A stretch of 64,000 nt of DNA from Nitrospirota bacterium (GTDB lineage: Bacteria; Nitrospirota; UBA9217). A model generated the notes under the pieces. The model saw nothing but the letters and a program-made list of their open reading frames with translations, was not told the origin of the DNA and did not search any database. The stretch spans positions 288,001-352,000 of the forward strand of contig CAVVUN010000012.1 of the NCBI GenBank assembly GCA_963751455.1, read 5' to 3'. A program made the translations under genes and the position numbers. Shown in pieces: positions 16,405 through 32,951 of the stretch (the first letter of the stretch is position 1; each line of letters starts with the position of its first letter).

Positions 16405-16428
16405 GTCGATTGCGCTGATATTAATATT

Positions 16429-18564
16429 TCAACCGATTCCTGGAATCCGCAAGGCTCGGTAAACCCAGAGCGCTTCATGAACGAGTACGGCGCTTAACGT
16501 ATGTGAATCAGGTTTCACATCCTTTGGAACGGTGAAAGAGTACTCCATCAATTGATCCTTGCACGGACCGATTTGTTTAAAAACAATGCGATGACTTACT
16601 TTTTCAGTTAGGCGAATCGCAACAACCGGTGAGCTTTTTGTGGACCAGACAGTATCGTTACAATCATTCACTCGCAGACAAACAACTACTTTTGCCCCTG
16701 CTCGGAGTTCGGATGGCCCCTCAAGCGATAGACGATACGCATTTTCAACCCAAAATTCGATCGGTCCGCAGACCTCGCACTCTCGCTGGATAAGGAGATT
16801 GCCGAGAGACAAGAGATGAGTAGCGGTTTCCCTAACAGTATGACCTGGCAAACATTGTGCCTCTGCCAGACAGGAATGTGAATGTAAGCCGGCATCAGCG
16901 ATAGATCGCCATAAAGCACCCCGACCTTCCCCAATAAACAGCATTTCGCAAAACAGAGTAGCCGCCAGTTCGTCCCACTGCCGAAATCCGAACTGAAGCG
17001 GATTGAGAAGTCGGCCGAGCTCGGGGTGCCACAAAAGCGAACGTTGGCAGCTTCGCACTAAATTCAGTCCTGCTTGCGCTGTTTCACTTATTTCACGGCT
17101 GATCTCTGCCATTCCGGCAAGTAACTCCTGACCGCTATTCGAGCCACTCAATTCCTTAGCGTAATGACGACGAACTGCTCGCTCCACTATGTTTGCATAT
17201 CCCGTTCGATCCAAATAGTGTAGCAACATGCTTGCTAATTTCTCCAACTCGTGACCACAGTTTCTTAGTTTAATTTCTCCGGGCTCGGCACTCTCCGTTA
17301 TAATAACGGCGCCGGTCGAGCCTCCTTGAATTACCGTTTGATCTTTAAGGCCTATTGTAGCAGCTAGGGGAGTTCCGGCTAGTTCAGATGGAAGAGCGAA
17401 TAGCTTAACCTTGGTCGATTGTGAATGCCACTTAGCTTCTTTATTGCCTAAGAGTTGTATTGATGGAGCAGGTCCGCAAGCATCGCCGAAAAGGACGTAT
17501 GGTCTTCTGCCTGTTGCACTCTCCTGAAAATCGTTCAGAAGGCATGCTATCTGTCCAAGTCCGACATTGTCCATTGAAAGAGAGTGACCAAGGGTAAGAT
17601 AATATTCGCTCAGTTCTGAGTTGCACCTGGTGGCAAGAAACGCTGCGGGAAAACCTTCGGCTATTGCAATTACGCTGTTTAGATCCGATGGGTAGAGTTC
17701 TCCGCCGAGCGCAAATCCACCGCATGAATGCAGCAGCAGGTTTCGGGCACTTAAATCCCCGAAGCCAATCGAAGTACGCGTACCAGCCGGTGCGCGCTTG
17801 CATTTACGAGTACCCAAGCCACTACAACCGTTAATAGGCCGATTATCAAGTAATCTTTCCGAGCTTATGCCGGCCCCGCAGAGGACAAGATTGCCTAGCT
17901 TAGCATGCCCGAATGTGCCGTGCGCGAAGACACTTAAGACATTCCAACTAGATTCCCGAATCCAGCGTCGAGCCTCATCCTCCATCCAGAGTATTTCATT
18001 GCAGCCGCTGGAAGTCCATCGTGACATTTTTTCTCGATCGAAATCTATCTCAGCTGAGTCAGGCCAATGAGCGTATTTAGCCAAATAGATCTTGGCCAAT
18101 GAAAAACTTAGACCCTCACTGTCAATTGCAGTAATTATACTCCAGGGACGCCGAAAGTGGACTGCCAATTGTTCAACTTGTGCAAAAGGGAAGTCATCGC
18201 GTAAACCTACGAGAACTGCTGAATCCCACACCGCAGCTTCAACTGAAAGCCAATTTTGTACTTTGGCAACGGGACGCTCCAACAACTGGGCATAGAACCT
18301 GACGATGCCGCTTAGTGCATCGTTTATGAAAAAAATCGGATTTCTATCATTTGTTCTCTTTCTTGGAGCGTCTATTTCACCCTTTTCCACCTGTTCTGAA
18401 GCAATATACCATTTTAAAATAGACTCCCAACGTGCAGATCGACCATCTTTCGGTCGCAGCACCATGGGTCCTCTCGCCGTGCCCTTCTTGAGCTGCTCTT
18501 CGAACGCAGTATGTCTTTCAGTCCAAGTAACCTTGTTGCTCATAACTTTGTCTTTAGTCATCAC
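16429..18564 (-). CDS. 711-aa protein with probable clan CD (caspase/CHAT/gingipain C25-like) His-Cys peptidase domain
   Basis: Beta-strand-preceded VFAHG and LLLHSC motifs and later YVLFGD; the rest is unrecognised. Confidence 0.5.
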   Translation of the reverse strand: MMTKDKVMSNKVTWTERHTAFEEQLKKGTARGPMVLRPKDGRSARWESILKWYIASEQVEKGEIDAPRKRTNDRNPIFFINDALSGIVRFYAQLLERPVAKVQNWLSVEAAVWDSAVLVGLRDDFPFAQVEQLAVHFRRPWSIITAIDSEGLSFSLAKIYLAKYAHWPDSAEIDFDREKMSRWTSSGCNEILWMEDEARRWIRESSWNVLSVFAHGTFGHAKLGNLVLCGAGISSERLLDNRPINGCSGLGTRKCKRAPAGTRTSIGFGDLSARNLLLHSCGGFALGGELYPSDLNSVIAIAEGFPAAFLATRCNSELSEYYLTLGHSLSMDNVGLGQIACLLNDFQESATGRRPYVLFGDACGPAPSIQLLGNKEAKWHSQSTKVKLFALPSELAGTPLAATIGLKDQTVIQGGSTGAVIITESAEPGEIKLRNCGHELEKLASMLLHYLDRTGYANIVERAVRRHYAKELSGSNSGQELLAGMAEISREISETAQAGLNLVRSCQRSLLWHPELGRLLNPLQFGFRQWDELAATLFCEMLFIGEGRGALWRSIADAGLHSHSCLAEAQCLPGHTVRETATHLLSLGNLLIQRECEVCGPIEFWVENAYRLSLEGPSELRAGAKVVVCLRVNDCNDTVWSTKSSPVVAIRLTEKVSHRIVFKQIGPCKDQLMEYSFTVPKDVKPDSHTLSAVLVHEALWVYRALRIPGIG

Positions 18565-19492
18565 CCATCTCTCTATTTTTTACCAGATCGTTCCTTAACT
18601 CCAAAAGGTTTTCAACTTGCTTTTGGTCTTCGCGAGATAAGATAGGGATACGGGTCAGTTTCTCCAACTCTTCCTCTCGATCAAGCAGCCCGAAGCGTAT
18701 CCGCTCGGCTATGTAATCGATCAATATCCGGGGGGCGTGACCGCCGTTCCGCAGCAAAATGTTATAGATACCATAACTGGCCATCAAACAATCAGAATCA
18801 TAGGGTCCGACACCAGGGTCCTCCCAGGGCAGTTCAGCGATTGCACGCTCTATATCCCTCTTTGTAAGAGAATATGCCGCGACTACTCGAATGAAAGTCG
18901 GATCTTTCTGATCTATACAACTCCAGTTCTTGGGAGTATCACCTCCCGTAAAGATGGCTTTGGCGCCATAGCGTTGAGCAACAGTTCTGAAAACTGGAAG
19001 CTTCCACGCAGTCTTGCACGTTTGGCCACAGACTGAACTGCCTTGAATAATCATCTCCCGGAAGGCCTTGTAGGGATAGGAATGGATAAGCAGCCAATCA
19101 ACTTTTAGAAAATCGATAATAGAATTAATATTGGCTCTTGTCTTCACGTTTTTCATGCCTTGGTCCACGGTGAACGCCAGAACTTTGAGCCCTCTCTCAA
19201 CAAGCAGCTTCAGCGCTACCGCACTATCCTTACCGCCTGAAAACGCCAAAATAGCATCGTACTCCGCAGTCTTTGCCTCTTTTAGTGCCTCCTCGAATTC
19301 GCTCATGAGCACTTGAGGATCGATAGGCCTCTCGACGAGAGCAGCACACTGCAAACAGAGAAAGCGTCCCTTCGTTTCAACGAACTTTAATTTATTGTCC
19401 ATTCCCTCCCGGTAGATACAGATTTCACACATTCGACCGCCAGGCAGTGTTGCAGAAATAGTTCCGTTCAGCATTTTTGATTTAGACTCCAT
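18554..19492 (-). CDS. PP-loop (N-type ATP pyrophosphatase) protein, WbpG/WbuX-like amidotransferase architecture
   Basis: N-terminal CxxC...CxxC, AILAFSGGKDS, CxxxC, C-terminal IRFGLLDREE. Confidence 0.75.
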   Translation of the reverse strand: MESKSKMLNGTISATLPGGRMCEICIYREGMDNKLKFVETKGRFLCLQCAALVERPIDPQVLMSEFEEALKEAKTAEYDAILAFSGGKDSAVALKLLVERGLKVLAFTVDQGMKNVKTRANINSIIDFLKVDWLLIHSYPYKAFREMIIQGSSVCGQTCKTAWKLPVFRTVAQRYGAKAIFTGGDTPKNWSCIDQKDPTFIRVVAAYSLTKRDIERAIAELPWEDPGVGPYDSDCLMASYGIYNILLRNGGHAPRILIDYIAERIRFGLLDREEELEKLTRIPILSREDQKQVENLLELRNDLVKNREMGDD

Positions 19493-19520
19493 GACTTTTC
19501 AAGTTCAGAATTTGACTTCA

Positions 19521-21032
19521 TTAAATGCAGTAGGTTCTTAGTTCATCGAGAGCACGACGAGCTTCAATCCGATCATCGAAAGCGAAACGCCGGCCGCTCA
19601 CGAGCTGATAAGTTTCATGTCCCTTGCCGGCAATTAAAACCACCCCTTTTGATCCGGCCCGCATGATTCCCATCCGAATAGCAGCAGCGCGGTCAGTCTC
19701 AACTTCATACTTAAGATTGAGTTGAGACGTTGCTGATAGGTTTGCTTCACTCACTCCGGATAAAATTTCCTCTATTATTGCCCGGGGATCCTCGCACCTT
19801 GGATTATCAGATGTAATAATTACGTGATCGCTAAGATTACATGCGATTGCACCCATCAACGGTCGCTTACTGCGATCGCAGTCGCCTCCGCACCCAAAGA
19901 CGGTCACTAGTTTGCTATTTCCGGATAATGCCCGCAAGGAACCGCATACGTTTTCAAGTGCATCAGGCGTATGGGCATAATCAATAAAAACTCGCGGACC
20001 ATTGACTCCCTGCACCAGTACTCGTTCGAGCCTGCCTGGCACACCATGAAAAGTCGCTATGGCCTCCGCGGACGAATTTAGATCAACACCGAGAGCAAGT
20101 GTTGCGCTGACAGCTGCCATAATATTGTAAACGTTGTAAATGCCGGTCATAGGCGAGACGATGTGAACACTATTAAACCCTTCCGCATCAAGCTGGAACT
20201 TCAACTGCTCTAACGTCATCCCAAGTTTTGACGCCCTTATTGTGGCCCGCCTCTCAATTCCGTACGTCATGAAACGCGAGCTGACCCGCTCAACTAAATG
20301 CCGGCCCCAGAGATCATCTATGTTAATCACCGCCAAAGCTTTAGTCGGAAGCATTTGGAACAACCGTGCCTTTGCCTCGAAATAGGCATCCATGGTGCCG
20401 TGATAATTCAAGTGATCTCGAGTTAAATTTGTAAAAATACCGATTCCGAAGTGAAGGCCATCCACACGATGCTGGCAAAGTGAGTGGGAGGATACTTCAA
20501 TTGCCGCCGTGTTTTGTCCCGTAACACGCATAGCCTCCAGGCATGCATGAATCTCTATGGCTTCGGGAGTAGTGATGCCGCCGTAGAAGGTTTGATTTCC
20601 GACAACCCAATCAACGCTGCCGATCATGCCGCAGCCACGATTGACATGGTTGAGAATATGCCGAATAAGATAACCCGTTGTAGTTTTGCCATTAGTTCCG
20701 GTAATGCCGACAATATCCATCATTAAACTGGGATGGTTATAATAGGCTGAACAGAGGTGTCCAAGTGCTTGACGTGGATTGTTAGCGATAATATGGGGGA
20801 GTTTTGGAGAAAATCGTTTTTTCGCTAAAATTGCGACAGCTCCGTTCCTCACCGCTTGGGATATGGCTGCTAAATAATTTTTATTGTTTTCGTCAGTCGC
20901 AGTGAAAATGAAACCCGGTTCCACGCTACGGGAGTCCAGAGCTATACCGAGAATATCAACATTTGCCGAATTAGTGATGGTAATGTCTGGATAGGACGCG
21001 CTTAGGCGATTAATGAGCGTGTTGAAATTCAT
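19521..21032 (-). CDS. murE: MurE-like Mur ligase (island-borne paralog)
   Basis: DSRSV, GTNGKTT, NLTRDHL, DYAHTPD, FGCGGD, DNPR, AGKGHE; not in a dcw cluster. Confidence 0.88.
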   Translation of the reverse strand: MNFNTLINRLSASYPDITITNSANVDILGIALDSRSVEPGFIFTATDENNKNYLAAISQAVRNGAVAILAKKRFSPKLPHIIANNPRQALGHLCSAYYNHPSLMMDIVGITGTNGKTTTGYLIRHILNHVNRGCGMIGSVDWVVGNQTFYGGITTPEAIEIHACLEAMRVTGQNTAAIEVSSHSLCQHRVDGLHFGIGIFTNLTRDHLNYHGTMDAYFEAKARLFQMLPTKALAVINIDDLWGRHLVERVSSRFMTYGIERRATIRASKLGMTLEQLKFQLDAEGFNSVHIVSPMTGIYNVYNIMAAVSATLALGVDLNSSAEAIATFHGVPGRLERVLVQGVNGPRVFIDYAHTPDALENVCGSLRALSGNSKLVTVFGCGGDCDRSKRPLMGAIACNLSDHVIITSDNPRCEDPRAIIEEILSGVSEANLSATSQLNLKYEVETDRAAAIRMGIMRAGSKGVVLIAGKGHETYQLVSGRRFAFDDRIEARRALDELRTYCI

Positions 21033-21292
21033 GGTATCTGTGTTTTTCTATGCCGCCATTATTGTCGAAAGTTTAATTCAACATTTATCTACCACGCTGC
21101 CCTTCTGTTGACGAGTGCCGCGAAGAGTCTGAGCCAGGCTGAAAGGCTGCCCCTCGCCGGCATTTCTCTCCGCAAAGCTGTAGAATCTTCAACCAACCCA
21201 AAGCACTGGTTGAGGAGCCATAGCTGAGCAAAGTTCTGCCGAGAAAACCATGCTAATGAAGCGAGGGGCCAAAGTTGTTTTTTGCCGATGGA

Positions 21293-21505
21293 CTACCAGT
21301 TCATGATACCGCCACCCCGCACGAAACCTGCACGAGCCAAATCAGCACGAATATTCGCCAGTTTGGCTTTTGCTTCTTGAACTTTCGCCTTAGCTTCATG
21401 GAACTGAGCCAAGGCCTGAAAGTCCTTGGAAACTAAATTTTTGTGCTCCGTTCGGAGGCGGAGCTCCACAATACCACTGGTACTCACTTTCTTCTTTTCT
21501 GCCAT
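21293..21505 (-). CDS. Putative RiPP precursor peptide 2 (70 aa, ends LARAG-FVRGGGIMNW)
   Basis: AAGGAGG RBS; paralog of 21607-21810; located in an RRE/rSAM cluster. Confidence 0.8.
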   Translation of the reverse strand: MAEKKKVSTSGIVELRLRTEHKNLVSKDFQALAQFHEAKAKVQEAKAKLANIRADLARAGFVRGGGIMNW

Positions 21506-21606
21506 CTTCCTGTCCTCCTTTTTTAATTAAGATTCTCCAATAGACACTTCGCACCGTTTGCTGTCCAAATGTTCATTAAGCCATTAATGGCACTGGGCTT
21601 GGTGAT

Positions 21607-21810
21607 TTACCAGTTATCCGATACGTCGCCAAGCACTAAACCCGCACGAGCCAAGTCAGCACGAATATGCGCCAATTTGGCTTTTGCTTCTTGAACTTTC
21701 ACTTTAGCTTCATGGAACTGAGCCAAAGCCTGAAAGTCCTTGGAAACTAATTTTCTGTGCTCCGTACGAAGCTCCTCGATACCGCGAATACCTAATTTCT
21801 TTTCAGCCAT
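21607..21810 (-). CDS. Putative RiPP precursor peptide 1 (67 aa, ends LARAG-LVLGDVSDNW)
   Basis: AAGGAGG RBS; shares LVSKDFQALAQFHEAKxKVQEAKAKLAxIRADLARAG with peptide 2. Confidence 0.8.
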   Translation of the reverse strand: MAEKKLGIRGIEELRTEHRKLVSKDFQALAQFHEAKVKVQEAKAKLAHIRADLARAGLVLGDVSDNW

Positions 21811-21869
21811 TTTTTTCTCCTCCTTTCTTGAATTAAATTAAACACAAGAGATTTTGATCTCAGCAATCC

Positions 21870-23390
21870 CTATATATGATTACTAAATCGATTTGAATCG
21901 TTCAAAACAAAGTTCTTATGACCAACAGCCGCAGCTGAGGCGCCTGCCATCCTCCCAAAAAAAGCGCCAGATAACAGACCAGTTCCGGCTAAATAGTTAT
22001 GATTGAAAAGGCCTCCCACCATTTCTCCGCAAGCGAAAAGGCCGGAGATAGGTTTCTGATTTGAATCAAGCACCTGAGCCATCTCATTTATTTTTACACC
22101 TCCATAAGTAAAAGTGATACCACCAGTAACGGGATATGCAAAAAAAGGCGGATCCTCAAGCCGGCGCGCCCAATTAGATTTAGGTGGTTGAATACCCGCA
22201 GCCGTCAAACCATCCAATTGGGTCGGGTCGAACTCACCTTGGCGCTGAGCCCCGTTATATTGCTTAAGCACTTCACATGCCCTAGCTTGATTTATTGGCA
22301 ACATCTTAACGAGGGATCCCAAGGAATCAGCGAGGATTGGTTTCCCGGTCTTATAGCGTTTCTCCAGCAGCGGCACGGCATTCGCGTCAAATATCTGGTA
22401 GGCTATGCCATTGGGCTGGCTTAGGATGATTCGACCCATCTTTGCATACGTGAAAAACTGAAAGTCTTCTCCTTCGTCACAAAAGCGCTGGCCGAGGCGA
22501 TTCAGCATCACTCCAAAAGGATAGGAAAGCCGGTTGGACTTATCAGTCAATGAACGGGAGCCGAAAAATGAAGTGCCCGCGTCAATGGGTGTAGAATGAC
22601 AGTGCGTGAAATTACCGTATCGAAGCGCGTTTAAGTCAAAAGCCATGCGCAAACCATCTCCGGTATTATAGGCAGTGCCTCGAACTCTCGCTTGAGCCCA
22701 TTGCCTACCCAAATAGTGCGCACGCCAAGCAGCATTAGACTCAAACCCCCCACAGGCCAGTATAATAGCTTTAGCGGTTAATTGAGAATATCCTTTCGGG
22801 CTCCGGGCAAGAACACCCGTAACCCTCGACCGATTATCCCGGGTTAGCGATACTGCAGCTGTTTGATATAGCACCTCTATTCCTCGTTCAGCAGCAATGT
22901 TGAACCACATTCGTGATAGTCCTACGCCTCCATCGCGTACCTGAACCAAAGCTCCAGGCGACCATCCCACCTTATTTTTGTGGCAAATAGCGCTCAAGGA
23001 TACGGCCAATTCCATAGCTATGCCTTGGTTTACCAACCAGCGGACTGTGTCATAAGAGTGATTGACCAACAGCATGCTCAAATGTAAATCGATTTGACGA
23101 TGAGTAAGGCGCTGTAGATCCTCCCAAAATTGTTGAGCTGTATAAGATGTTATCTCCTCGAAAAAGCCAGGAACTTGACGTTCGGCATCAGGTAACAGTG
23201 GCCGTAGATCGTTTCTCGAATCGAAGGCGAAACGCAATAGCCCTCCGCTGAAGTAAGTATTTCCACCACGAAAATGTTCAGGTGCTTTCTCGAGAACAAT
23301 AACTCGCTTCGCGCCATTTTCGTGGGCGGATACGGCGGCAGCCATAGCGGCGTTCCCAGCGCCAACGATTATTACGTCAAAATCAGACAT
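21870..23390 (-). CDS. FAD-dependent oxidoreductase, TcuA/CobZ-like (succinate dehydrogenase/fumarate reductase flavoprotein superfamily)
   Basis: VIIVGAGNAA, EKAP..RGGNT, LACGGFESN, NTGDG, GITFTYGG, GLFACGE; no tcuB/tcuC nearby. Confidence 0.85.
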   Translation of the reverse strand: MSDFDVIIVGAGNAAMAAAVSAHENGAKRVIVLEKAPEHFRGGNTYFSGGLLRFAFDSRNDLRPLLPDAERQVPGFFEEITSYTAQQFWEDLQRLTHRQIDLHLSMLLVNHSYDTVRWLVNQGIAMELAVSLSAICHKNKVGWSPGALVQVRDGGVGLSRMWFNIAAERGIEVLYQTAAVSLTRDNRSRVTGVLARSPKGYSQLTAKAIILACGGFESNAAWRAHYLGRQWAQARVRGTAYNTGDGLRMAFDLNALRYGNFTHCHSTPIDAGTSFFGSRSLTDKSNRLSYPFGVMLNRLGQRFCDEGEDFQFFTYAKMGRIILSQPNGIAYQIFDANAVPLLEKRYKTGKPILADSLGSLVKMLPINQARACEVLKQYNGAQRQGEFDPTQLDGLTAAGIQPPKSNWARRLEDPPFFAYPVTGGITFTYGGVKINEMAQVLDSNQKPISGLFACGEMVGGLFNHNYLAGTGLLSGAFFGRMAGASAAAVGHKNFVLNDSNRFSNHI

Positions 23391-23469
23391 AAAACCTCTG
23401 TTAAAAACATCAAAGAACTATGAATAACAGCTAGTTGTCAATCAACTTCAACGGTTGCTAAAAATAAAT

Positions 23470-25164
23470 TTAGTCCCGCATCTTTCTAGGTTGAACGGTT
23501 GTATGGCCAGAAAATAACCATATTTCGCGTTCACGGGGCAGATTGTTGACATCAACATTAGCAGGAGTGTCTATAAATTTTTTTACATTTTCCCCTAAAT
23601 GCAAGGCGATCAATGAAGCCATATCCTCTTTCGACGGAACTGGTATCAGGATTTGTGCACCGAGAAGCTTCATCATGTCCATCGTTTTCGCATTGTTAAA
23701 GGCACAGGTATGTGCATCGTCATAGAGGCAGAGTAATACATCTACCGGCATAAGTGCAGAAATCTCATCGTGAGATAATGAACGTGTCAATCCGCCAATA
23801 TAACAAAACCGGAAGCCATCGAACTCGATGACTGCTATCGGAGATTGATAGACTCCTCCCGAAATCAAACTCTCGTCCCGGTTAATTAGCTGTATTGAGC
23901 AAAAGTCATAATTTATGATGTCGACGGCTCTCTTCCTGTTTACGTTAGAAGCGCCCAAGGGTGTTTGTAACTGATGTTTTTTCGACCAAATACCATCTCT
24001 GTCAAGCACTACCACATCTTCTTGCTGTTCAATTAGTCGAGAGCTTTTTCTGCGGGGGTCCAGAATGACCAGGCCTGGCTTCGATGCCGATTGAAGTTCA
24101 ATAAACCCATCACGACATCTAATACTGTACTTGCCGGCTGATCCTGAAACATAAGGCTTACGCGCCGATGAAACTGATAGCGGGCAGTACAAATCCGCCT
24201 CATCAGATCGTAGCCCCCAACCGACTGCACATGCTCTACAGCCTCCGAGACAATTAGAAAGGTGACCGCAGCTAGAGCAGGTATCAGGCACATTGAGAGT
24301 ACGCAATGCATTCATCCGCGCGCCATAAAACACTTCAGTAAGTCGATGAGTGACGAGATTGCCTAATGGCAATTTAATATAACCGCAAGGGACAAGGTTC
24401 CCCAGGGCATCAACGTGCAAATGCTTACTGAAGCAGCCTGGCTGAGTCGAAGGTGTCGTCCCCTGCAAAAACTCAAAACAGGATGAGCCAAAAGTGATCT
24501 GTCTGTATTTTGACATCGCAATGGCGCTCTTCACGACCTCGGCAACCTGCTCCGCCGAGGGACAAAGCTCATGACTTGCACGGCCCGACGGCACTACGGG
24601 GCGGATTTTAAATATCGCAGCGCCTGCATTGTGGGCGGAATCAGCGACCTGCTTCATTTCTGCGATATTGACTCGTGTAAGCGTCATGCGTACGAGGACC
24701 TGGAATCCCATACTTGAAGCCGTCTCAATATTGGCCAGCGTACGTGCAAATGCTCCCGGTGTGTTCCGATGCCAATCATGAGTAGGTCCAAATCCGTCTA
24801 GGCTCACGTGCATCGTAAAAATGCCTGCATCGAGCATACGGTCCAATTCTTCAGAATTCAAATTATAGGCGTTCGTGAAAAGTATTGATGCGATGCCGGC
24901 GTCAATCAGATGCCTTCCAATAGCGCATACAAGATTTAATTCTAAGGTAGGTTCTCCGCCGGTGATGGCCACTTCTTTCGTATCGAGCTGATGAAGATCC
25001 TCAATAAGCTTTGACCTAAAGCGGGAGAAGTTAAAAACAGCACCTTTTTTCGGCGCCGGGCGCGCACAATGCCGGCATTTCATGTTGCACTGGTCGTTTA
25101 TGCGAATGCGGAGACTCTGGAGTCGCGCATATGGAACGGTCGGAAGCATGTTAGGTTTCAACAC
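23470..25164 (-). CDS. Radical SAM/SPASM protein with C-terminal degenerate metallo-beta-lactamase-like domain
   Basis: CNMKCRHC, TGGEP, SLDG; SPASM C..VPC..CSSC...CLGGCRAC..YCP; C-terminal FDGFRFCYIGGL..VDVLL..ILIPV. Confidence 0.85.
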   Translation of the reverse strand: MLKPNMLPTVPYARLQSLRIRINDQCNMKCRHCARPAPKKGAVFNFSRFRSKLIEDLHQLDTKEVAITGGEPTLELNLVCAIGRHLIDAGIASILFTNAYNLNSEELDRMLDAGIFTMHVSLDGFGPTHDWHRNTPGAFARTLANIETASSMGFQVLVRMTLTRVNIAEMKQVADSAHNAGAAIFKIRPVVPSGRASHELCPSAEQVAEVVKSAIAMSKYRQITFGSSCFEFLQGTTPSTQPGCFSKHLHVDALGNLVPCGYIKLPLGNLVTHRLTEVFYGARMNALRTLNVPDTCSSCGHLSNCLGGCRACAVGWGLRSDEADLYCPLSVSSARKPYVSGSAGKYSIRCRDGFIELQSASKPGLVILDPRRKSSRLIEQQEDVVVLDRDGIWSKKHQLQTPLGASNVNRKRAVDIINYDFCSIQLINRDESLISGGVYQSPIAVIEFDGFRFCYIGGLTRSLSHDEISALMPVDVLLCLYDDAHTCAFNNAKTMDMMKLLGAQILIPVPSKEDMASLIALHLGENVKKFIDTPANVDVNNLPREREIWLFSGHTTVQPRKMRD

Positions 25165-25292
25165 TGATTGCTCCTTTTGATCTTGTCATCACTAGTTGCA
25201 ATATCTCCGCGGCTGGTCACTGTGTATTCGCGCAAAAATTTTAAGCTTTTAATTGGTCTCGCCTAAGATTCTGCAATTCGCCCGCGTCATAA

Positions 25293-26333
25293 TCAAAATT
25301 CCAGAGAGTTTGGCTTAATATTCTGACAAGATGGTACGCTTACCGTGAGGTCATTGAAAAAATTGAAACCCAGCGCCCTGCATGCCGAACAAAAATATTG
25401 ATCGTCACAATTTCCACATTTTCCTTGATATTTTCCAGGCGTTTGTTTTCGTAGAAGTGCCAAAAGTTCAGATGACCAAATTTTTTTCAAATCGTCATTA
25501 ACAAGATTTCCCAAGGCGGATGCCAAAACAGGTTTAAAATGCTCGCAAGGTCGAACTGTGCCATCAGGGGATATTGATAATTTGAACCTACCCGCAGAAC
25601 AAAGCTTCAGATGATCATTTTCCGGACTGCGACTGCAACTGCTGTATCGTAATGGTAACTTGCTAACTGTTGTCTTCGCGCGTTGCCACAAAGCGAATGC
25701 CGCCGACTCATCTTGTGCAAATATATGCTGTCCAAATTTAAACGGTACATAATATTGCATGATAACTCCGCGCAGTCGGTCTGGCAAAGCAGATATAAAC
25801 TCGGCTGGTTCAGGGCATCCTGCTAAAAGTGACCAGACAACCATCACATTAAGACCAGCATCCATTGCATGTATCATAGCCGAGCAAGTCTCATCGAAGC
25901 TGCCTGCCCGCGTTTGCTTGTCGTGGTAAACGCGGTTGCCAAATAATTCAAATATAATATTTCCAACGCCGGTTTTTCCCAATTTAAACCAAAAATCCGC
26001 TTCAGGCATTGGGCCACCTGTAATAAGGTCGCAATCGAGGTCATCTTTAGTTGACTCCTCCAGTATCTCTGGGAGCCACGGGAAAGCATTACAGCCCGGT
26101 GCGATAAATAACACATGCCGAATATTGTGCTCCGACAGAACCAGTAAAACCTTTCGTATGATTCTTTGCTGTTCTTTTGGCTCATAACCTTGGAAAAAGT
26201 AGGGGCAATGTTTGCATTCAAACGCACATTTCCAAGCGAGCTGGATATGGGCCTCAATTGCAACGCTCGGTAGTATGGATAAAAAATCTTTAATCCTCTG
26301 ATCGACTTGTTGATTCATTTTATCAACCAGCAA
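25293..26333 (-). CDS. Radical SAM/SPASM protein (divergent core)
   Basis: CAFECKHC; no clear GGEP; SPASM CSAG..VRPC..CGNC...CSACRA..SC. Confidence 0.8.
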   Translation of the reverse strand: MLVDKMNQQVDQRIKDFLSILPSVAIEAHIQLAWKCAFECKHCPYFFQGYEPKEQQRIIRKVLLVLSEHNIRHVLFIAPGCNAFPWLPEILEESTKDDLDCDLITGGPMPEADFWFKLGKTGVGNIIFELFGNRVYHDKQTRAGSFDETCSAMIHAMDAGLNVMVVWSLLAGCPEPAEFISALPDRLRGVIMQYYVPFKFGQHIFAQDESAAFALWQRAKTTVSKLPLRYSSCSRSPENDHLKLCSAGRFKLSISPDGTVRPCEHFKPVLASALGNLVNDDLKKIWSSELLALLRKQTPGKYQGKCGNCDDQYFCSACRALGFNFFNDLTVSVPSCQNIKPNSLEF

Positions 26334-27427
26334 TAAGGGTCGGGCGCGTATAAATCTCCTGAACTAATGTAAGCCATGGCACGACATCCGCCACCGCATT
26401 GCATAAAGCTGCTGCAATTGCAGCAACGTGGATCGATTCCATCTCTAGCCCTCAGAGCATCCATAACTGGATGCCGCGACAAGATATCATCTATATGGTT
26501 AGATGCCAGTGTACCCAGCGTCAAGGGGAAAACCGGGCATGGATAAGCATGTCCTTGAGCTGTATAATGCAACATATAACCTGCTCCGCACTGAGCTCGT
26601 TCGTCGATGGATCTTTCTGCGAAAAGAGCTGCACAGTGTGGCAGCTCCAAGTGAATACCTATATGAAAAGTAGAAATCTTTTTGATATCTAAAATAAAAC
26701 GCTTTAATGATTCTCCGGACAAAATAGGACCAGACAGGCCGGCTTGTCTGCCCAGAGGCATAAGTGGGAATAGGATTAAGGTGTTGACACCCAGTTCATC
26801 TAGCATGTGAATCATTTGCTGGATATCACTTTGATTATGGCGAGAAACGGCTGTTTGAACAGCCACTCTGACGCCTTTTCTAACAAGGCGCTCGATCGCA
26901 GACCAGGCTTTAATGAACGTGCCCGGGCCTCTCACAGCCTCATGAGCCTTGGATAGCCCGTCCAACGAGACCTTAATACCATAAATATTCATAGAAATGA
27001 GTTGCTCGATTCGTTCATCTGAAAGGAGAATTCCATTGGTTGTTAAACCCCAGAACATTTGCTTACGAGTTGCATAAGTGCCGAACGACTTGACTATATT
27101 CCACTCAAGTAGCGGCTCTCCACCGGTCAAGTCGAGAATAGGTGTGCGTTCACCCATCTGGTTAAAAAGTTCTGCTACCATCAATTCTGACCAAGAGGAA
27201 GTCGAACTCGCAGAGCTGTCGACGGCGCAATGGGTACACGAAAGATTGCATCGTGCAGTTATTTGAACGCTAATGGAAGTAAGGGGCGCTGATTCGAATG
27301 CCATTGTCGGAGAACTCCTGTAATGCTGCGATGAATTTGGGGGATAACCAACTATTGGGTATCCCCCATGTGGTAATGCAGCTAGCGTTTTAGAGACAAT
27401 GGGCAATGTTGACCATACAACCCGCAA
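26315..27427 (-). CDS. Radical SAM/SPASM protein
   Basis: CNLSCTHC, TGGEPL, TTNG, VSLDG; SPASM CGAG..YPC..CCNC...CGGGCRA..DPYC; true start may be downstream (MAFESAP). Confidence 0.88.
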   Translation of the reverse strand: MRVVWSTLPIVSKTLAALPHGGYPIVGYPPNSSQHYRSSPTMAFESAPLTSISVQITARCNLSCTHCAVDSSASSTSSWSELMVAELFNQMGERTPILDLTGGEPLLEWNIVKSFGTYATRKQMFWGLTTNGILLSDERIEQLISMNIYGIKVSLDGLSKAHEAVRGPGTFIKAWSAIERLVRKGVRVAVQTAVSRHNQSDIQQMIHMLDELGVNTLILFPLMPLGRQAGLSGPILSGESLKRFILDIKKISTFHIGIHLELPHCAALFAERSIDERAQCGAGYMLHYTAQGHAYPCPVFPLTLGTLASNHIDDILSRHPVMDALRARDGIDPRCCNCSSFMQCGGGCRAMAYISSGDLYAPDPYCWLIK

Positions 27428-27494
27428 ATCGAACTTTTTTCAACTTAAGCTTAAATTTGCGCATATAGCACCTCCTTTCTCCGTTTGAGTTCTC

Positions 27495-28319
27495 CTAAAG
27501 AGGCCCTGGGCATAATTTATCCCTGCCTGTGCGTCTTCTGCGGGCTCGGCATCCCCCGCCACAATCCTTAATAGCACACTTTAAACATTCATCGGGAACC
27601 CGAGACCAGGTGAGAAGCCTCTCATCATTCCAAATTTCGCTCAAGCTTTTGTTGTCTAAGGAGCCCAGGCAAAGGCGTGAGCGTCGACATGGACGAACTT
27701 CAGCCTGCTCCGAAACAAACAGGGCAAATCGACCAGCTGGGCATTTACTTCCGACATTTACAAAATCAGGGAAAAAACGCTGCATTAATACCAGATCTGA
27801 TATGACAGGTATCGAGCAATTGTCGGAAAATTCAGATACTGCATAAAGAAATTGTCGGTAAGTATCAACCGAAGCGTGTGGAAGCTCCTCGATGTTCACG
27901 GCTGCCACAGATCTTGCTGACAGCCATTCGATCCAAACCTCTTGATTCGCCTTAGGAGGCAAGTAACCAACAATGACAATACTAAAGCCAAAATCCAGGA
28001 GCATGGCGATTTTTTCCTTGAGACTTTTATCGGGCGAAAGACTTGTATCAACGCTGACTCGCAATGTACATGGAGCAAGCCGGCGCCAGGATGGACGAGG
28101 TTGCAAATCCTCGTATGCGAGGGTCAACACAAGTTCATAACCATGTATTACACTTAAATCCAAAGCCGTTTCAATTGGACCCTTGCATACCATGTTAATA
28201 ATGGAAATTCCTCCAGCAAGTATCATTGACAAGCGTTCGGTCCACAGCGTGTGGTCGGGCTGCAAAGGCAAATCTACCTCGGCAATCATAGGCGCTATCA
28301 GGCGTTCGCTTTCGGACAT
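27495..28319 (-). CDS. SPASM-domain protein lacking the radical SAM CxxxCxxC motif
   Basis: C-terminal CPAG..VRPC..CLKC...CGGGCRA..DKLC; only isolated Cys in N-terminal 170 aa. Confidence 0.75.
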   Translation of the reverse strand: MSESERLIAPMIAEVDLPLQPDHTLWTERLSMILAGGISIINMVCKGPIETALDLSVIHGYELVLTLAYEDLQPRPSWRRLAPCTLRVSVDTSLSPDKSLKEKIAMLLDFGFSIVIVGYLPPKANQEVWIEWLSARSVAAVNIEELPHASVDTYRQFLYAVSEFSDNCSIPVISDLVLMQRFFPDFVNVGSKCPAGRFALFVSEQAEVRPCRRSRLCLGSLDNKSLSEIWNDERLLTWSRVPDECLKCAIKDCGGGCRARRRRTGRDKLCPGPL

Positions 28320-29269
28320 AAAGGATCGTTACCCCAAATTTCCTTTGTGGCGCTGTAGGCTGCTGCTCGGCAACCTCTGCATATCGTGCAAAAATCGCAA
28401 GTATAGCACTTGGCTTCAGATGGAACGGTGCGCAGCGATGCCATTAATTCAGAAGTTTGCCATGCGGCGGTAAATCCTACATCGAAAACATTACGATCAG
28501 AAATACGCAGTTTCGCACAGGGTAGCATAGAGCCATCACTGGAGATTACAACCGCCCATCTGCCGGCGGAACAGCCACTCCAGATATCGTTGGGAATATC
28601 TTTGATATATTTTTTTGGAGTTAATAAATTAAGCAAAGGTTCTTCACAAGATAAATTCTCATGCGATTGCATCCATCCCGAGATCGTCTTCAAGACATGA
28701 TCATACTCGACTACTCCGAGAGAAAAATCATAATCAAGCTTGCCGGGTAAGGCGCAAATTCTCTGGAAACCTGCAGGAACTCCAAGACGAACGAACAGAT
28801 TTAAGAATTTGTCTATTTTAGCGATATTTCGCGACGAAAGTGTCACGAGAAAAGTAATTGGAAGGCCTGCATCTCGCAAGCGCAAGACTTGTTCACACAC
28901 TGCTTGCGCCCTTTCATCCTCTGTTGGAAGAGCATGAAGACTGAGTTGAATAAAAGAAATTTTGTTGTGAAGACGGCTAAAGAAATTTTCAGGAATTCGG
29001 AGTCCATTTGTCAAAAGACCTGGTCGCCAGCCAAACTGATTAGCTTTCCCGACCAGTTCCTCAATATGCGGATATTGCAAACACTCGCCCCCTGTAAAAA
29101 CGATTCGCTCTACTCCCGCCTTTTTAGCCTCAGCCAGAAGTTGAGTGCCTTCAAACAGCGGCATATCTGTAATATGGCGTTCAGAGCCTAAATAACAAAA
29201 GGGGCAATCCAAGTCACATCGTGTAGTTACCTCCAGCTCGAGTAAACTTGGCGCTTGCAAATTCAGCAT
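28298..29269 (-). CDS. Radical SAM/SPASM protein
   Basis: CDLDCPFC, TGGEC, LTNG; SPASM CSAG..LPC..CYTC...CRGCRA..DPLC. Confidence 0.88.
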   Translation of the reverse strand: MLNLQAPSLLELEVTTRCDLDCPFCYLGSERHITDMPLFEGTQLLAEAKKAGVERIVFTGGECLQYPHIEELVGKANQFGWRPGLLTNGLRIPENFFSRLHNKISFIQLSLHALPTEDERAQAVCEQVLRLRDAGLPITFLVTLSSRNIAKIDKFLNLFVRLGVPAGFQRICALPGKLDYDFSLGVVEYDHVLKTISGWMQSHENLSCEEPLLNLLTPKKYIKDIPNDIWSGCSAGRWAVVISSDGSMLPCAKLRISDRNVFDVGFTAAWQTSELMASLRTVPSEAKCYTCDFCTICRGCRAAAYSATKEIWGNDPLCPKANA

Positions 29270-29270
29270 T

Positions 29271-29594
29271 TTACAATCCCTTTTCGATCCGGATTAGTTT
29301 GTTATCATTCATTTCCTGGAGAAAACCAGATAACTCTTCTATTAACTCCTTTCTTTCTGGAATTTCAACGTTACCGATTTTTTCTAAATTATAAGTAATA
29401 TCGTCGCAAATTTTGCCGAACGTTGTCGGTTTATCCAATAGACGCCATACCATTGCTTCGAACTCGCCAAATTCGTAGAAGCCGTGAAAATCCGGTCGTT
29501 CTCCTTTGTATCTTGGGAAAACCAGTATCCTCCCATCCTCAGTATCTCGCCACTGATGGCTCTCTAGTCTATACACTAACGTTGAGTCATCCAT
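29271..29594 (-). CDS. PqqD-family stand-alone RiPP recognition element (RRE)
   Basis: 107 aa; three strands then helices with MVWRLLDKPTTFGKICDDI...Y...ELSGFLQEMNDNKLI pattern; directly upstream of rSAM genes; AGGAGG RBS. Confidence 0.8.
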   Translation of the reverse strand: MDDSTLVYRLESHQWRDTEDGRILVFPRYKGERPDFHGFYEFGEFEAMVWRLLDKPTTFGKICDDITYNLEKIGNVEIPERKELIEELSGFLQEMNDNKLIRIEKGL

Positions 29595-29671
29595 TTTACC
29601 TCCTGCTGAACCTAGTGAATTAGCCCAAAGTTCGGAATCACCTCGATAATAAAGTTTAAAAAGGGAGACTA

Positions 29672-32317
29672 TTACTTACTAAATATAATATTCGAAACAT
29701 CGATAACATCTTCCTTCAACGCAGTGTTAGATAGCAGCTCCCATGATGTGCTCCTTATGGCTGCCTTCAAATCACTCGCAATTGGCTCTATAATGTTTAT
29801 TATATTTGGGTTGGCATGGATGACTATACTCTCAATGCTTCGCCAACTTGGGAGCTGATGAGCCGCCTTCGCCTTATTGACCGCAGAATACACGGCCTGA
29901 GCTACATCAAAACTACTGTTCTTGTCAGGCGGAGAAATCCCCTTGAAATCCGTGTCGTTGGGCCAAGGTGCAATTGAAATACTCTTAATTCCAGTTTCCC
30001 CTGCAAATTCCCAAGACCAAACTTCCTCGCAGATATAGGGAATAAACGGTGCAAACATCTTGATTAATGTTTTAAGACCGAGACGCTGAGCGGCTATAGA
30101 CGACCCTTGATCTTCTGATTTAATACCATCTCCGCCCCATGTTCTCTTTTTGCTTAACTCAAGATAACTATCTGTGAAAGAATGCCAGAAGAAACTTTCA
30201 AGGGTGGAAAGGGCACTGCAGAAATTATATTCGTTTAATTGTTCAGTTACCGTTCGTACAGCTTTTCTGAGATGATCAATGAATGCCCGGTCTAATTCAC
30301 AAGATATGCTGTTTCCAGGTCCCTTTTGTGAAAGCACGAATTTTGAGGCATTATATATTTTTACAACAAGTCGGTTGCCTATTTTTACGATATTCTCATC
30401 ATATGCAGTATCAACTCCAAGTCGCGCATTCCCTGCCCAATAACGGAGGGCATCGGAGGAATACTTTTCAAGAAGATCGGTCGGCACAATAACATTACCT
30501 TTACTCTTGGACATTTTTTTTCTGTCTGGATCAAGAACCCATCCTGAAATGTTAATATTTTTCCAAGGTATTATATTTTCATGCAGCAGAGATTTCACTA
30601 TTGTGTAAAAAGCCCACGTTCTTATAATTTCATGACTTTGTGGCCGCAAATCCATAGGAAATAACTTACTGTGCCGATCTTCGTCTACTAACCATCGAGA
30701 TGCGATTTGAGGAGTCAATGAACTCGTGAACCAGGTATCAAAAACATCGGCTTCTGCAACAAACCCATTTGCTATTCCTCTCTGCCCTTCAGAATAGCCA
30801 GAGGGACAGGTTACTGCCGGGTCAACTGGAAGTTGATCTTCAGCGGCAATTATTGGCTTTGCGTAGTCTGGAATTCCATTATTATCGATAGGATACCATA
30901 CCGGGAAAGGGACGCCGAAATATCTTTGACGGCTGATGCACCAGTCCATATTTAAATTTTGGGTCCAATCCCTATATCTATTAAGCATAAAACTCGGATA
31001 CCAGTTGATTTCCTCCCCCTTTTCCAAAAGTTGTGCTTTCTTATCAAGTAGACGTACGAACCATTGACGTGTTGTTATGTATTCAAGAGGATGATCCCCT
31101 TTCTCGTAGTACCTGACAAAGTGTTTTAATGATCTCTTCGCGATTAAGGGGGGGGCATTTCCGACTGCAGCGCCATTTGGCCGTCTTAACATTTCAGCAA
31201 TTATTTCTCGAGCTTTCCGCACTGGCTTGCCGGCAAGTTCTGAATAAAAAGTATTTGCTAAACTCGGATTTTGACTATGCCAACCCTCATGGCCAAAGCT
31301 GATGTTTGCGAATCTCCCATCTCCTGAAATAATCTGCCTTAAAGGCAGATTTTCTTCACGCCACCATTGAACATCGTTTTGATCTCCGAATGTACAGACC
31401 ATAAGGATGCCGGTGCCTTTTTCAGGATTCACCATTTTACTAGGAAAGCATCGAACTTCTGAAAAAAATAAGGGAGTAATGGCTTTTTCCCCGACTAGGT
31501 GCTTATACCTTGGGTCGTCCGGATGAAATGTAACTCCAACGCAGGCCGGTAGAAGCTCGGGGCGGGTAGTCGATATGGTGAAACCAGCATCTGATTCGGC
31601 TAGACCAAAACGAATATCGTGAAAAACGCCTTCAACTTCTCGATCTTCAACTTCTGCTTGAGCAATTGCAGTTTGAAAGTCAATATCCCACATGGTGGGC
31701 CCTTCCGAACTATACAGGTGGCCCTTTCTCAGTAGGTCCAAAAAACTTACTTGCGCAATAGTTCTACAAAGCTTATCAATGGTTGAGTATTCCTGATGCC
31801 AATCCACAGACAATCCGATTCTTTGCCACAAACTTTTGAATACTTCTTCATCTTCTTTTGTCAGTTTAACGCAAAGATCTAAAAAATTAGATCGTGATAT
31901 AATCTGCGGTTTTTTCTTCCTATCTTCCGAGTCCGCCTGTTTTATGTTCAAATGCTCTTTATACGGCTCATTAGGATCGCATCGGACATGAAAATAATTT
32001 TGAACCCTTCTCTCTGTTGGAAGGCCATTGTCGTCCCATCCCATTGGATAAAATATATTTTTCCCGACCATTCTTTGATATCGAACGATGATATCAGTAT
32101 GCGTGTAGCTAAATATATGACCGATATGAAGAGAACCTGAAACTGTTGGTGGCGGTGTATCGATTGCAAATGTTTCGGCACGTTTTTTCGAGGAATCGTA
32201 TTTGAATATACCAAGCTCATCCCATAGCGCTTGATATTTTTTTTCAGCTGCTCTTGAATCGAAATGTTTTGGTAAGGTACTCGCATCAAATGAATTTCTA
32301 TCGTTTTTAATTATCAT
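29672..32317 (-). CDS. valS: Valyl-tRNA synthetase, type 2 (archaeal/actinobacterial-like), island-borne
   Basis: DTPPPTVSGSLHIGH, GWDDNGLPTER, WCISRQRYFG, DTWFTSS, RPQSHEIIRTW, KMSKS; no long C-terminal coiled coil. Confidence 0.93.
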   Translation of the reverse strand: MIIKNDRNSFDASTLPKHFDSRAAEKKYQALWDELGIFKYDSSKKRAETFAIDTPPPTVSGSLHIGHIFSYTHTDIIVRYQRMVGKNIFYPMGWDDNGLPTERRVQNYFHVRCDPNEPYKEHLNIKQADSEDRKKKPQIISRSNFLDLCVKLTKEDEEVFKSLWQRIGLSVDWHQEYSTIDKLCRTIAQVSFLDLLRKGHLYSSEGPTMWDIDFQTAIAQAEVEDREVEGVFHDIRFGLAESDAGFTISTTRPELLPACVGVTFHPDDPRYKHLVGEKAITPLFFSEVRCFPSKMVNPEKGTGILMVCTFGDQNDVQWWREENLPLRQIISGDGRFANISFGHEGWHSQNPSLANTFYSELAGKPVRKAREIIAEMLRRPNGAAVGNAPPLIAKRSLKHFVRYYEKGDHPLEYITTRQWFVRLLDKKAQLLEKGEEINWYPSFMLNRYRDWTQNLNMDWCISRQRYFGVPFPVWYPIDNNGIPDYAKPIIAAEDQLPVDPAVTCPSGYSEGQRGIANGFVAEADVFDTWFTSSLTPQIASRWLVDEDRHSKLFPMDLRPQSHEIIRTWAFYTIVKSLLHENIIPWKNINISGWVLDPDRKKMSKSKGNVIVPTDLLEKYSSDALRYWAGNARLGVDTAYDENIVKIGNRLVVKIYNASKFVLSQKGPGNSISCELDRAFIDHLRKAVRTVTEQLNEYNFCSALSTLESFFWHSFTDSYLELSKKRTWGGDGIKSEDQGSSIAAQRLGLKTLIKMFAPFIPYICEEVWSWEFAGETGIKSISIAPWPNDTDFKGISPPDKNSSFDVAQAVYSAVNKAKAAHQLPSWRSIESIVIHANPNIINIIEPIASDLKAAIRSTSWELLSNTALKEDVIDVSNIIFSK

Positions 32318-32529
32318 CTTTCAAAATCCTAAAACAACCCAAAGTAATAAATTTGCATTTGGCTGACAGTTAATTTTCAATTAAGCTTACATAGCTTAAA
32401 ATTAAACATAATATGTAATTGAAAAATTGCGGATAGTAAGGAAAGAAGGAGTAGCCGAACCTAGTATCACTCTATCTAAAAAGGACTCTATTTAGATAAG
32501 GCAGCGTTCTGCGGATATCATTTAAGGGC

Positions 32530-32559
32530 ATTATAGTGATCTACACACTTGTTTGTCAA
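32530..32559 (-). promoter_or_regulatory. Consensus sigma70 promoter driving the island
   Basis: Minus strand TTGACA (32559-32554) - 18 bp - TATAAT (32535-32530), about 210 bp upstream of valS. Confidence 0.8.
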
Positions 32560-32946: not shown

Positions 32947-32951
32947 GACTG

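What the first reader, a model, noticed from the sequence alone, without database searches (positions are those of the whole stretch)
16429..32559. Unfamiliar RiPP-type cluster: Asn-Trp-terminal precursors, RRE, five SPASM proteins, flavoprotein, Mur ligase, PP-loop enzyme, clan-CD protease and a dedicated ValRS
Seen: 13 co-oriented genes on an AT-richer island behind one consensus promoter, in the order valS, RRE, rSAM, SPASM-only, rSAM, rSAM, rSAM-MBL, TcuA-like, precursor 1, precursor 2, murE, PP-loop, protease-like. Established: a PqqD/RRE plus SPASM radical SAM enzymes next to small peptides is the hallmark of peptide-modifying systems (PQQ, mycofactocin, sacti/ranthipeptides), which usually have one or two such enzymes. 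I know no described class with five SPASM proteins together with MurE and ValRS paralogs. Inference: heavy radical tailoring of a short C-terminal core, possibly releasing a Trp-derived small molecule as mycofactocin is released from a C-terminal Val-Tyr. No exporter or regulator is visible in the island.
Basis: partly seen in the sequence, partly recalled or inferred. Interest (0 to 1): 0.95.

Follow-up and report, generated by a model that had tools for sequence, protein, structure and literature searches.

The report
Overlooked peptide matches its tRNA synthetase
An acquired gene island encodes five iron-sulfur (SPASM-type) proteins and a previously missed 24-residue peptide whose one variable core residue matches the tRNA synthetase carried beside it (valine here, leucine in an archaeal copy), so it likely makes an undescribed peptide-derived inhibitor of that synthetase and likely carries its own resistant enzyme.

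Summary
A 24-aa ORF (27390-27464, strong RBS; MRKFKLKLKKVRFAGCMVNIAHCL) lies between the SPASM genes. A DPANN archaeon (L008) has orthologs of all five SPASM proteins and the RRE (28-36% identical) and the same peptide, 11 of 12 core residues identical. No Asn-Trp peptide, TcuA, MurE or protease homolog was found in that genome. So the island holds two modules. In module A the only core difference, Val versus Leu, matches the embedded synthetase: ValRS here, LeuRS there. Both are archaeal-type. Host relatives use bacterial-type ValRS, and two relatives of the archaeon have bacterial-type LeuRS at the same site. Best reading (0.5): a radical-SAM RiPP that yields a Val-based inhibitor of ValRS, with the cluster synthetase giving immunity. 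The match rests on two loci; the chemistry is inferred. Module B (Asn-Trp peptides, TcuA-like, altered MurE, PP-loop, gingipain-fold protein) looks like a separate peptide-tailoring set with no second locus found. No NCBIfam RiPP cut-off is met, and eight literature searches found no such cluster.

The parts
32530..32559 (-). sigma-70-type promoter match TTGACA-18-TATAAT upstream of valS
   Evidence: 12 of 12; function untested
29672..32317 (-). archaeal-type (alt_ValS) valyl-tRNA synthetase, 881 aa, HIGH and KMSKS intact; module A
   Evidence: 28-33% identical to relatives' ValRS; groups with plasmid-borne ValRS
29271..29594 (-). PqqD-like RiPP recognition element, 107 aa; module A
   Evidence: orthologs in L008 and L048
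28298..29269 (-). rS1: radical SAM/SPASM, 323 aa, CxxxCxxC at C18 in both loci
   Evidence: 33.5% to L008 ortholog
27495..28319 (-). SP2: SPASM-only protein, 274 aa, no CxxxCxxC in either locus; likely non-catalytic partner
27390..27464 (-).
   Evidence: RBS GGAGAAAGGAGG; ortholog at L008:3426-3503; last 13 codons differ at 9 bases but 1 residue; background best 3 of 12 in L008 and 6 of 12 in the genome
26315..27304 (-). rS3: radical SAM/SPASM, 329 aa from the RBS-preceded ATG; directly downstream of the peptide in both loci
   Evidence: 36.3% to L008 ortholog
25293..26318 (-). rS4: degenerate radical SAM/SPASM; CxxxCxxC here, absent in L008
   Evidence: (PF04055 26.4, below 29.5)
23470..25164 (-). 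rS5: radical SAM/SPASM with a C-terminal metallo-beta-lactamase-fold domain; the L008 ortholog lacks that domain
   Evidence: 32.4%
21870..23390 (-). TcuA-like FAD oxidoreductase (fumarate reductase family); module B
   Evidence: no TcuB over cut-off in the genome
21607..21810 (-). 67-aa Asn-Trp-ended peptide 1; module B
21293..21505 (-). 70-aa Asn-Trp-ended peptide 2; conserved leader, variable 10-residue tail
   Evidence: leader 43 codons with 4 non-synonymous and 6 synonymous changes, tail 10 codons with 6 and 1
19521..21032 (-). MurE paralog, 39% to the housekeeping MurE; DNPR kept, GGDCD in place of GGDRD/GGERD, N-terminal loop glycine changed
18554..19492 (-). PP-loop ATP pyrophosphatase with N-terminal CxxC pairs, distantly WbuX-like
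16429..18564 (-). 711-aa gingipain-fold (clan CD-like) His-Cys protein of an unnamed family; peptidase or acyl-transferase
   Evidence: relatives in nucleoside/NRPS clusters
15304..16404 (-). left boundary: 3' remnant of the ElsL-MurC-like gene, interrupted by a ~170-nt multicopy element (15535-15707)
32952..33883 (-). right boundary: 3' part of the intact ElsL-MurC-like gene (32952-34871), direct repeat of the left remnant (98% and 89%)
   Evidence: single copy in 5 of 5 family members

Best explanation
The RRE and five SPASM proteins likely modify the 24-residue peptide at 27390-27464 into a small valine-containing inhibitor of valyl-tRNA synthetase, and the archaeal-type ValRS in the same operon likely makes the producer immune. 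Shown: the genes, the peptide, their co-conservation in a bacterium and an archaeon, the Val/ValRS versus Leu/LeuRS match, and the foreign type of both synthetases. Inferred steps: the RRE binds the basic leader; rS1, rS3 and rS5 do the radical chemistry with SP2 and rS4 as partners; Cys16/Cys23 and Val18-Asn19 are the modified sites; proteolysis frees a Val-led fragment. Of two chemical forms I favour an active-site valyl-adenylate mimic, made by adding the SAM-derived adenosyl radical to a desaturated residue next to Val18 (about 0.3), over a non-canonical Val such as cyclopropylglycine (about 0.2). Module B (TcuA-like, Asn-Trp peptides, MurE-like, PP-loop, gingipain-fold protein) is most likely a second peptide-tailoring set: C-terminal activation, amide ligation and desaturation on the variable tail, then cleavage or transfer. 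It may also decorate the module A product in this host.
For: Peptide ortholog with RBS directly upstream of the rS3 ortholog in L008. Core 11 of 12 identical while the enzymes are 28-36% identical; 9 base changes give 1 residue change. The motif occurs once in the 5.7-Mb genome, and among the fetched loci only at these two sites. Each of rS1, SP2, rS3, rS4, rS5 and RRE has its best match in a different L008 ORF. L008 LeuRS overlaps the rS4 start and is divergent from the RRE; it is archaeal-type (TIGR00395 819, cut-off 648) and the only full-length LeuRS hit in G031. Two relatives of G031 carry bacterial-type leuS beside argS, the place the cluster occupies in L008. No ValRS closer than 33% to the island enzyme was found in 30 relatives of the host. 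A BLOSUM-based estimate that a single core substitution is exactly this Val/Leu swap is 0.012-0.016, post hoc. ValRS of this type is mobile: 7 plasmid-collection records, 2 of 5 viewed inside enzyme operons. Precedents read: a second synthetase as immunity for agrocin 84, albomycin, borrelidin, mupirocin, indolmycin (PMC7916415, PMC9032320, passages); a SPASM enzyme turning peptide Val into cyclopropylglycine (PMC9062424, abstract); a ribosomal scaffold trimmed to a one-residue warhead (PMC13622209, abstract and discussion).
Against: The residue-synthetase match rests on two loci and was noticed after the fact; Val/Leu is a common swap and both peptides also end in Leu. Four more rS1 orthologs exist but their neighbourhoods could not be fetched. 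No exporter, protease or desaturase is conserved between the two loci, which an exported antibiotic would be expected to need. L008 also has AlaRS- and ArgRS-like genes at its edges (my reading of the sequences). Three of five plasmid ValRS viewed stand alone. Nothing in the ValRS sequence was shown to confer resistance. No product or activity was observed.
Confidence: 0.5

Rival explanations
1. The 24-mer is the substrate, but the product is an ordinary thioether-bridged peptide or a cofactor; the synthetase is a passenger that stabilises the island by replacing the native gene, and the Val/Leu match is chance.
For: Two conserved Cys and SPASM enzymes fit sacti/ranthipeptide chemistry. The cluster LeuRS is the only one found in G031. 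The host's native valS is broken in the assembly. No exporter. n = 2.
Against: Two different synthetases were recruited into the same cluster, each of the foreign type, each matching the single variable residue.
Confidence: 0.25
2. The synthetase is a biosynthetic enzyme supplying Val-AMP or Val-tRNA for ligation onto a radical-SAM-built scaffold, as AbmK and VlmL do, with or without an immunity role.
For: AbmK supplies seryl-adenylate in albomycin biosynthesis (PMC9032320, passages). The island has candidate ligases and transferases (MurE-like, PP-loop, gingipain-fold).
Against: Those candidates were not found in the L008 genome. The matching residue is already encoded in the peptide. The synthetases look like full-length housekeeping enzymes.
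Confidence: 0.13
3. One reading: one pathway in which all five SPASM proteins tailor the Asn-Trp tails of the 67/70-aa peptides and release a Trp-derived molecule.
For: One promoter match and one orientation for all 14 genes. The Asn-Trp peptides have the conserved-leader, variable-tail pattern of precursors.
Against: The five-SPASM set occurs with the 24-mer and without detectable Asn-Trp peptides in G031. No homolog of these peptides beyond the pair was found in 5.8 billion proteins. The modules differ in GC (44.5% and 47.7%), and no PP-loop or protease homolog looked up had the same longest-contig length as an rS1 homolog.
Confidence: 0.07

Closest known systems
Microcin C (RiPP-derived aspartyl-adenylate mimic)
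   Same: A ribosomal peptide supplies the amino acid of a synthetase-directed warhead (AspRS target in PMC9032320, passages; the role of a terminal Asn is recalled). Here Asn follows the variable residue.
   Different: No ThiF-type adenylyltransferase family was hit; the residue is internal; five SPASM proteins and an RRE; immunity would be a synthetase copy.
Agrocin 84/AgnB2, albomycin/AbmK, mupirocin (cluster-borne resistant synthetase)
   Same: An extra, divergent synthetase inside a biosynthetic cluster (PMC7916415, PMC9032320, passages). That the mupirocin-resistant IleRS is of the non-bacterial type is recalled.
   Different: Those products are not RiPPs; no ValRS case appeared in the passages read; here the synthetase changes with one codon of the precursor.
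TvgA/TvgB (Val to cyclopropylglycine)
   Same: A SPASM radical SAM enzyme modifying peptide Val to a non-canonical residue (PMC9062424, abstract and section 4).
   Different: One enzyme on TVGG repeats; here a single Val/Leu between two Cys, five SPASM proteins and a synthetase. No sequence comparison with TvgB was run.
Mycofactocin, PQQ, GeoRSP and SynChlorMet cassettes
   Same: Short precursor, PqqD-type RRE, SPASM enzymes; GeoRSP also has a SPASM-only protein model (TIGR04304).
   Different: All scores far below cut-off: mycofactocin at most 104 of 265, PqqE 81 of 381, GeoRSP 101 of 400, ScmE/F 96 and 93 of 400. The peptide hits no NCBIfam model.
Fosfazinomycin (peptide scaffold trimmed to a small warhead)
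   Same: An overlooked short precursor, an RRE and an ATP-dependent C-terminal activating enzyme; a model for module B (PMC13622209, abstract and discussion).
   Different: No phosphonate genes; the PP-loop protein is not scored as an asparagine synthetase.

Membership tests
RRE-dependent radical SAM/SPASM RiPP | Short precursor with RBS co-conserved with the enzymes | tested here: met
   (two loci)
RRE-dependent radical SAM/SPASM RiPP | PqqD-like RRE | tested here: met
   weak Pfam/NCBIfam PqqD hits below cut-off here and in both L008 copies
RRE-dependent radical SAM/SPASM RiPP | CxxxCxxC radical SAM domain plus SPASM cysteines | tested here: met
   rS1, rS3, rS5 in both loci; SP2 in neither; rS4 here only
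RRE-dependent radical SAM/SPASM RiPP | Enzymes bind and modify the peptide | not testable with these tools
   needs biochemistry; the 24-mer is below the size accepted for complex prediction
Mycofactocin / PQQ / GeoRSP / SynChlorMet / sacti-ranthipeptide maturases | Maturase reaches the curated family cut-off | tested here: not met
   best 25 families shown per protein; only the generic SPASM domain model TIGR04085 passes
Mycofactocin / PQQ / SynChlorMet | Precursor matches the family model | tested here: not met
   0 NCBIfam families for both peptide orthologs at E up to 5
Synthetase-inhibitor cluster with self-resistance copy | Divergent synthetase inside the cluster, distinct from the native type | tested here: met
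Synthetase-inhibitor cluster with self-resistance copy | An intact housekeeping copy elsewhere | tested here: inconclusive
   native valS present but broken in this assembly; no second LeuRS found in G031
Synthetase-inhibitor cluster with self-resistance copy | Product inhibits the native enzyme and not the cluster copy | not testable with these tools
   no product known
Microcin C-like | ThiF/MccB adenylyltransferase and C-terminal Asn | tested here: not met
   no such family hit; the peptides end in Leu or Trp
Gingipain-like clan CD (C25) peptidase | His-Gly and Cys dyad on a gingipain fold | tested here: met
   dyad conserved in 84 rows; model pLDDT 90.8; Kgp match over about 500 columns, TM 0.27-0.29 of query and 0.41-0.43 of target, 10-11% identity, E 3.5e-4: weak. 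Atlas neighbour named C25
Gingipain-like clan CD (C25) peptidase | Pfam Peptidase_C25 match | tested here: not met
   0 of 61 members
Gingipain-like clan CD (C25) peptidase | Hydrolyses a peptide bond | not testable with these tools
   4 of 4 plasmid relatives viewed follow a stand-alone NRPS and a HAD phosphatase, which suits acyl transfer as well
MurE (peptidoglycan) | Family score and DNPR motif | tested here: met
MurE (peptidoglycan) | Arg of the GG(D/E)RD motif | tested here: not met
   Cys here; Arg in the two bacterial structures aligned and in the host's own MurE. Its role in binding the diaminopimelate carboxylate is recalled
TcuA tricarballylate dehydrogenase | Family score and a TcuB partner | tested here: inconclusive
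   passes PRK08274, fails TIGR02485; no TcuB over cut-off, but none of 14 control genomes had one either

The most novel reading that the evidence does not exclude
A new RiPP class of programmable synthetase inhibitors: one codon of a 24-residue precursor sets which aminoacyl-tRNA synthetase is hit, radical SAM enzymes build an aminoacyl-adenylate mimic on the peptide, and the cluster travels between bacteria and DPANN archaea with a matching archaeal-type synthetase that ends up displacing the host's own gene. It would include a natural ValRS-directed and a LeuRS-directed member.
Probability: 0.3. Interest if true: 0.95.

Novelty: new variant of a known kind. Interest (0 to 1): 0.82.

Why it matters
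It gives a defined 24-residue substrate for five uncharacterised SPASM proteins, which makes the chemistry directly testable by co-expression and mass spectrometry. It predicts the target from the genes alone, and a single Val-to-Leu swap with the two natural synthetases gives a built-in control. If right, it adds a ribosomal route to synthetase inhibitors, a validated antibacterial target class, and shows a secondary-metabolite cluster in a 1.4-Mb DPANN genome that appears to have replaced a core translation gene.

Tried and rejected
A SecD marker search over 60 handles to pick a narrower group did not discriminate. Protease family: 0 of 30 relatives, 0 of 271 and 0 of 131 genomes in two phyla, 0 of 5 handles; no significant PDB sequence hit. 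Complex prediction of the RRE with Asn-Trp peptide 1 gave no answer, score 0.00, and is not used as evidence. Sequencing runs: no RNA holder listed; one DNA run with a 0.06 share covered neither the island continuously nor the valS lesions. The idea that the native valS is a true pseudogene could not be settled: it has three frameshifts and an 81-nt in-frame gap against a relative, but 8 of 149 ortholog rows were multi-frame (valS counted twice, one row probably broken in the relative) and the single leuS is also broken several times, so assembly error is possible. Atlas search of the Asn-Trp peptide gave only scores of 0.85 or less. The rS4 alignment was in the wrong frame and was redone. The wide structural search did not complete, so the gingipain fold rests on Foldseek and the Atlas.
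Full report
Observation. The window is G000:C12:288001-352000. The stretch 16405-32951 is 45.7% GC against 52.6% and 54.1% on either side. It is bounded by a direct repeat of the 3' part of an ElsL-MurC-like gene: 701 nt at 98% and 236 nt at 89%, the left copy split by a 170-nt element with dozens of copies in the genome. Five of five family members searched have one copy of that gene. I infer insertion by recombination with a donor piece of the same gene. No integrase, exporter or regulator family was hit in the island. One perfect sigma-70 match precedes valS.

The missed gene. rS1 (28298-29269) has five homologs at E <= 1e-20 among 5.8 billion proteins. A genome scan with their alignment returned 39 loci, of which one, L008 from a Candidatus Iainarchaeum MAG, is orthologous. 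It encodes counterparts of all five SPASM proteins and two RREs, at 28-36% identity, each window protein having its best match in a different ORF. Just upstream of its rS3 ortholog is a 25-aa ORF with an RBS. The same place in the window holds MRKFKLKLKKVRFAGCMVNIAHCL behind GGAGAAAGGAGG (27390-27464). The last 12 residues are 11 of 12 identical. The last 13 codons differ at 9 bases, 7 of them third positions, and change one residue. Among ORF ends of 12 or more residues the next best identity is 3 of 12 in L008 and 6 of 12 in the host genome. This is a protein-coding gene under strong constraint and, by standard RiPP logic, the substrate of the RRE and SPASM set. Binding and modification are inferred.

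Two modules. In the L008 genome (G031, 1.4 Mb, completeness not given) I found no homolog of the Asn-Trp peptide (only an SMC coiled coil at E 0.28), the protease family, TcuA or MurE, and only a 52-residue motif hit for the PP-loop protein. The Asn-Trp peptides have no homolog beyond each other. They do look like precursors, with 4 non-synonymous and 6 synonymous changes in 43 leader codons against 6 and 1 in the 10-codon tail. So module A is valS, RRE, rS1, SP2, the 24-mer, rS3, rS4, rS5 (44.5% GC); module B is tcuA-like, two peptides, murE-like, PP-loop, gingipain-fold (47.7% GC).

The synthetase link. In L008 a LeuRS gene lies inside the cluster, overlapping the start of rS4 and divergent from the RRE. 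The single difference between the two cores is Val here and Leu there. A rough BLOSUM estimate for that exact swap is 0.012-0.016; it is post hoc and n is 2. Both synthetases are of the archaeal type. No ValRS closer than 33% to the island enzyme was found in 30 host relatives, and in a 13-row tree it groups with plasmid-borne ValRS and not with six family ValRS, on a long branch. Of 20 relatives of G031, 3 have a full-length archaeal-type match (44-52%), 2 have a LeuRS that I read as bacterial-type lying beside argS, the site the cluster occupies in L008, and 15 gave no match at 1e-40 and were not examined. The cluster LeuRS is the only full-length LeuRS hit in G031, so it appears to have displaced the native gene. 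In the host the native valS carries three frameshifts and an 81-nt gap, which would parallel this, but the assembly also breaks leuS and about five other tested genes, and reads did not cover the site. That point is open.

Mechanism. A divergent synthetase inside a biosynthetic cluster is the known immunity pattern for agrocin 84, albomycin, borrelidin, mupirocin and indolmycin (PMC7916415 and PMC9032320, passages read). I therefore infer that module A turns the peptide into a Val-based compound aimed at ValRS. rS1, rS3 and rS5 keep CxxxCxxC in both loci and would be the catalysts; SP2 lacks it in both and rS4 in L008, so these are likely partners. One route is a valyl-adenylate mimic: adding the adenosyl radical to a desaturated residue after Val would put three atoms between the Val carbonyl and C5' of adenosine, as in the natural intermediate (my reasoning; no precedent was read). 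The other is a non-canonical Val, for which TvgB is a precedent (PMC9062424, abstract and section 4). Trimming a ribosomal scaffold to a one-residue warhead by general peptidases is described for fosfazinomycin (PMC13622209, abstract and discussion). Against this model: no exporter, protease or desaturase is shared by the two loci, three of five plasmid ValRS viewed stand alone, and resistance was not shown.

Module B. The MurE paralog keeps DNPR but has Cys for the Arg of GG(D/E)RD, suggesting a changed acceptor; the role of that Arg is recalled. The TcuA-like protein has no TcuB over cut-off in the genome, though the control was uninformative. The 711-aa protein belongs to a family of 237 representatives with a conserved His-Cys pair; its model (pLDDT 90.8) matches gingipain K weakly over about 500 columns, most other rows being short matches of 100-190 columns, and 0 of 61 members hit Pfam C25. 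Four of four plasmid relatives viewed, out of six hits, follow a stand-alone NRPS and a HAD phosphatase, three of them in 7-deazapurine clusters, so it is not RiPP-specific and may transfer acyl groups. I infer C-terminal activation, ligation and desaturation on the Asn-Trp tails. No second locus was found to test this.

Known systems and novelty. No maturase model reaches its cut-off among those shown and neither peptide ortholog hits an NCBIfam model. Eight full-text searches found no cluster of this make-up (0 papers; 68, 87, 108, 109: 2, 2, 2 and 8 listed, none describing it in what I read). PMC13149037 was read in passages and concerns tRNA deacylases. I did not open the supplement of PMC9062424, whose list of 22 predicted pathways could hold a relative, and subscription journals are not covered. 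Unchecked notes from this scan describe other peptide-plus-synthetase cassettes; look-ups by sequence returned none of them, so they are leads and not support.

Verdict. A real, acquired, uncharacterised radical-SAM RiPP system whose substrate is the overlooked 24-mer (about 0.85). Interest 0.82.

Noticed in passing
window 15535-15707 and 34923-35095; genome-wide: A ~170-nt element at 97-100% identity occurs in dozens of copies on most contigs and has inserted into the left murC remnant; looks like a recently active MITE.
   Followed up: no
window 32952-34871: Fusion of an ElsL/YkuD-type L,D-carboxypeptidase-like domain to a MurC/Mpl-like ligase, conserved at 76-82% in 5 of 5 family members; suggests a one-protein peptidoglycan recycling unit.
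   Followed up: partly
G000 C3:167.5-170.1 kb (L075) and C2:141-143.7 kb (L076): Native valS has three frameshifts and an 81-nt gap; the single leuS has several frameshifts. Either assembly error or, for valS, decay.
   Followed up: partly
L067, L068, L070 (Streptomyces plasmids): A roughly 20-gene 7-deazapurine nucleoside cluster (QueD, QueE, FolE, QueC, stand-alone NRPS, HAD, gingipain-fold protein, radical SAM, aminotransferase) recurs on several plasmids; product not identified.
   Followed up: no
L109:4943-13310 and L111:6084-14258: Archaeal-type ValRS inside small enzyme operons on Streptomyces and Variovorax plasmids (radical SAM and arginine deiminase family; aminotransferases, amidohydrolase, branched-chain ABC transporter): candidate clusters for other Val-directed compounds.
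   Followed up: no
L049:1935-2825 and L050:12579-13097: Lipoprotein-like ORFs with repeated EP(E/D)YGVP motifs next to a SPASM radical SAM gene, possibly repeat-type RiPP substrates.
   Followed up: no
window 21033-21292: A 260-nt gap between peptide 2 and murE has no convincing ORF; could hold a regulatory RNA or a remnant.
   Followed up: no
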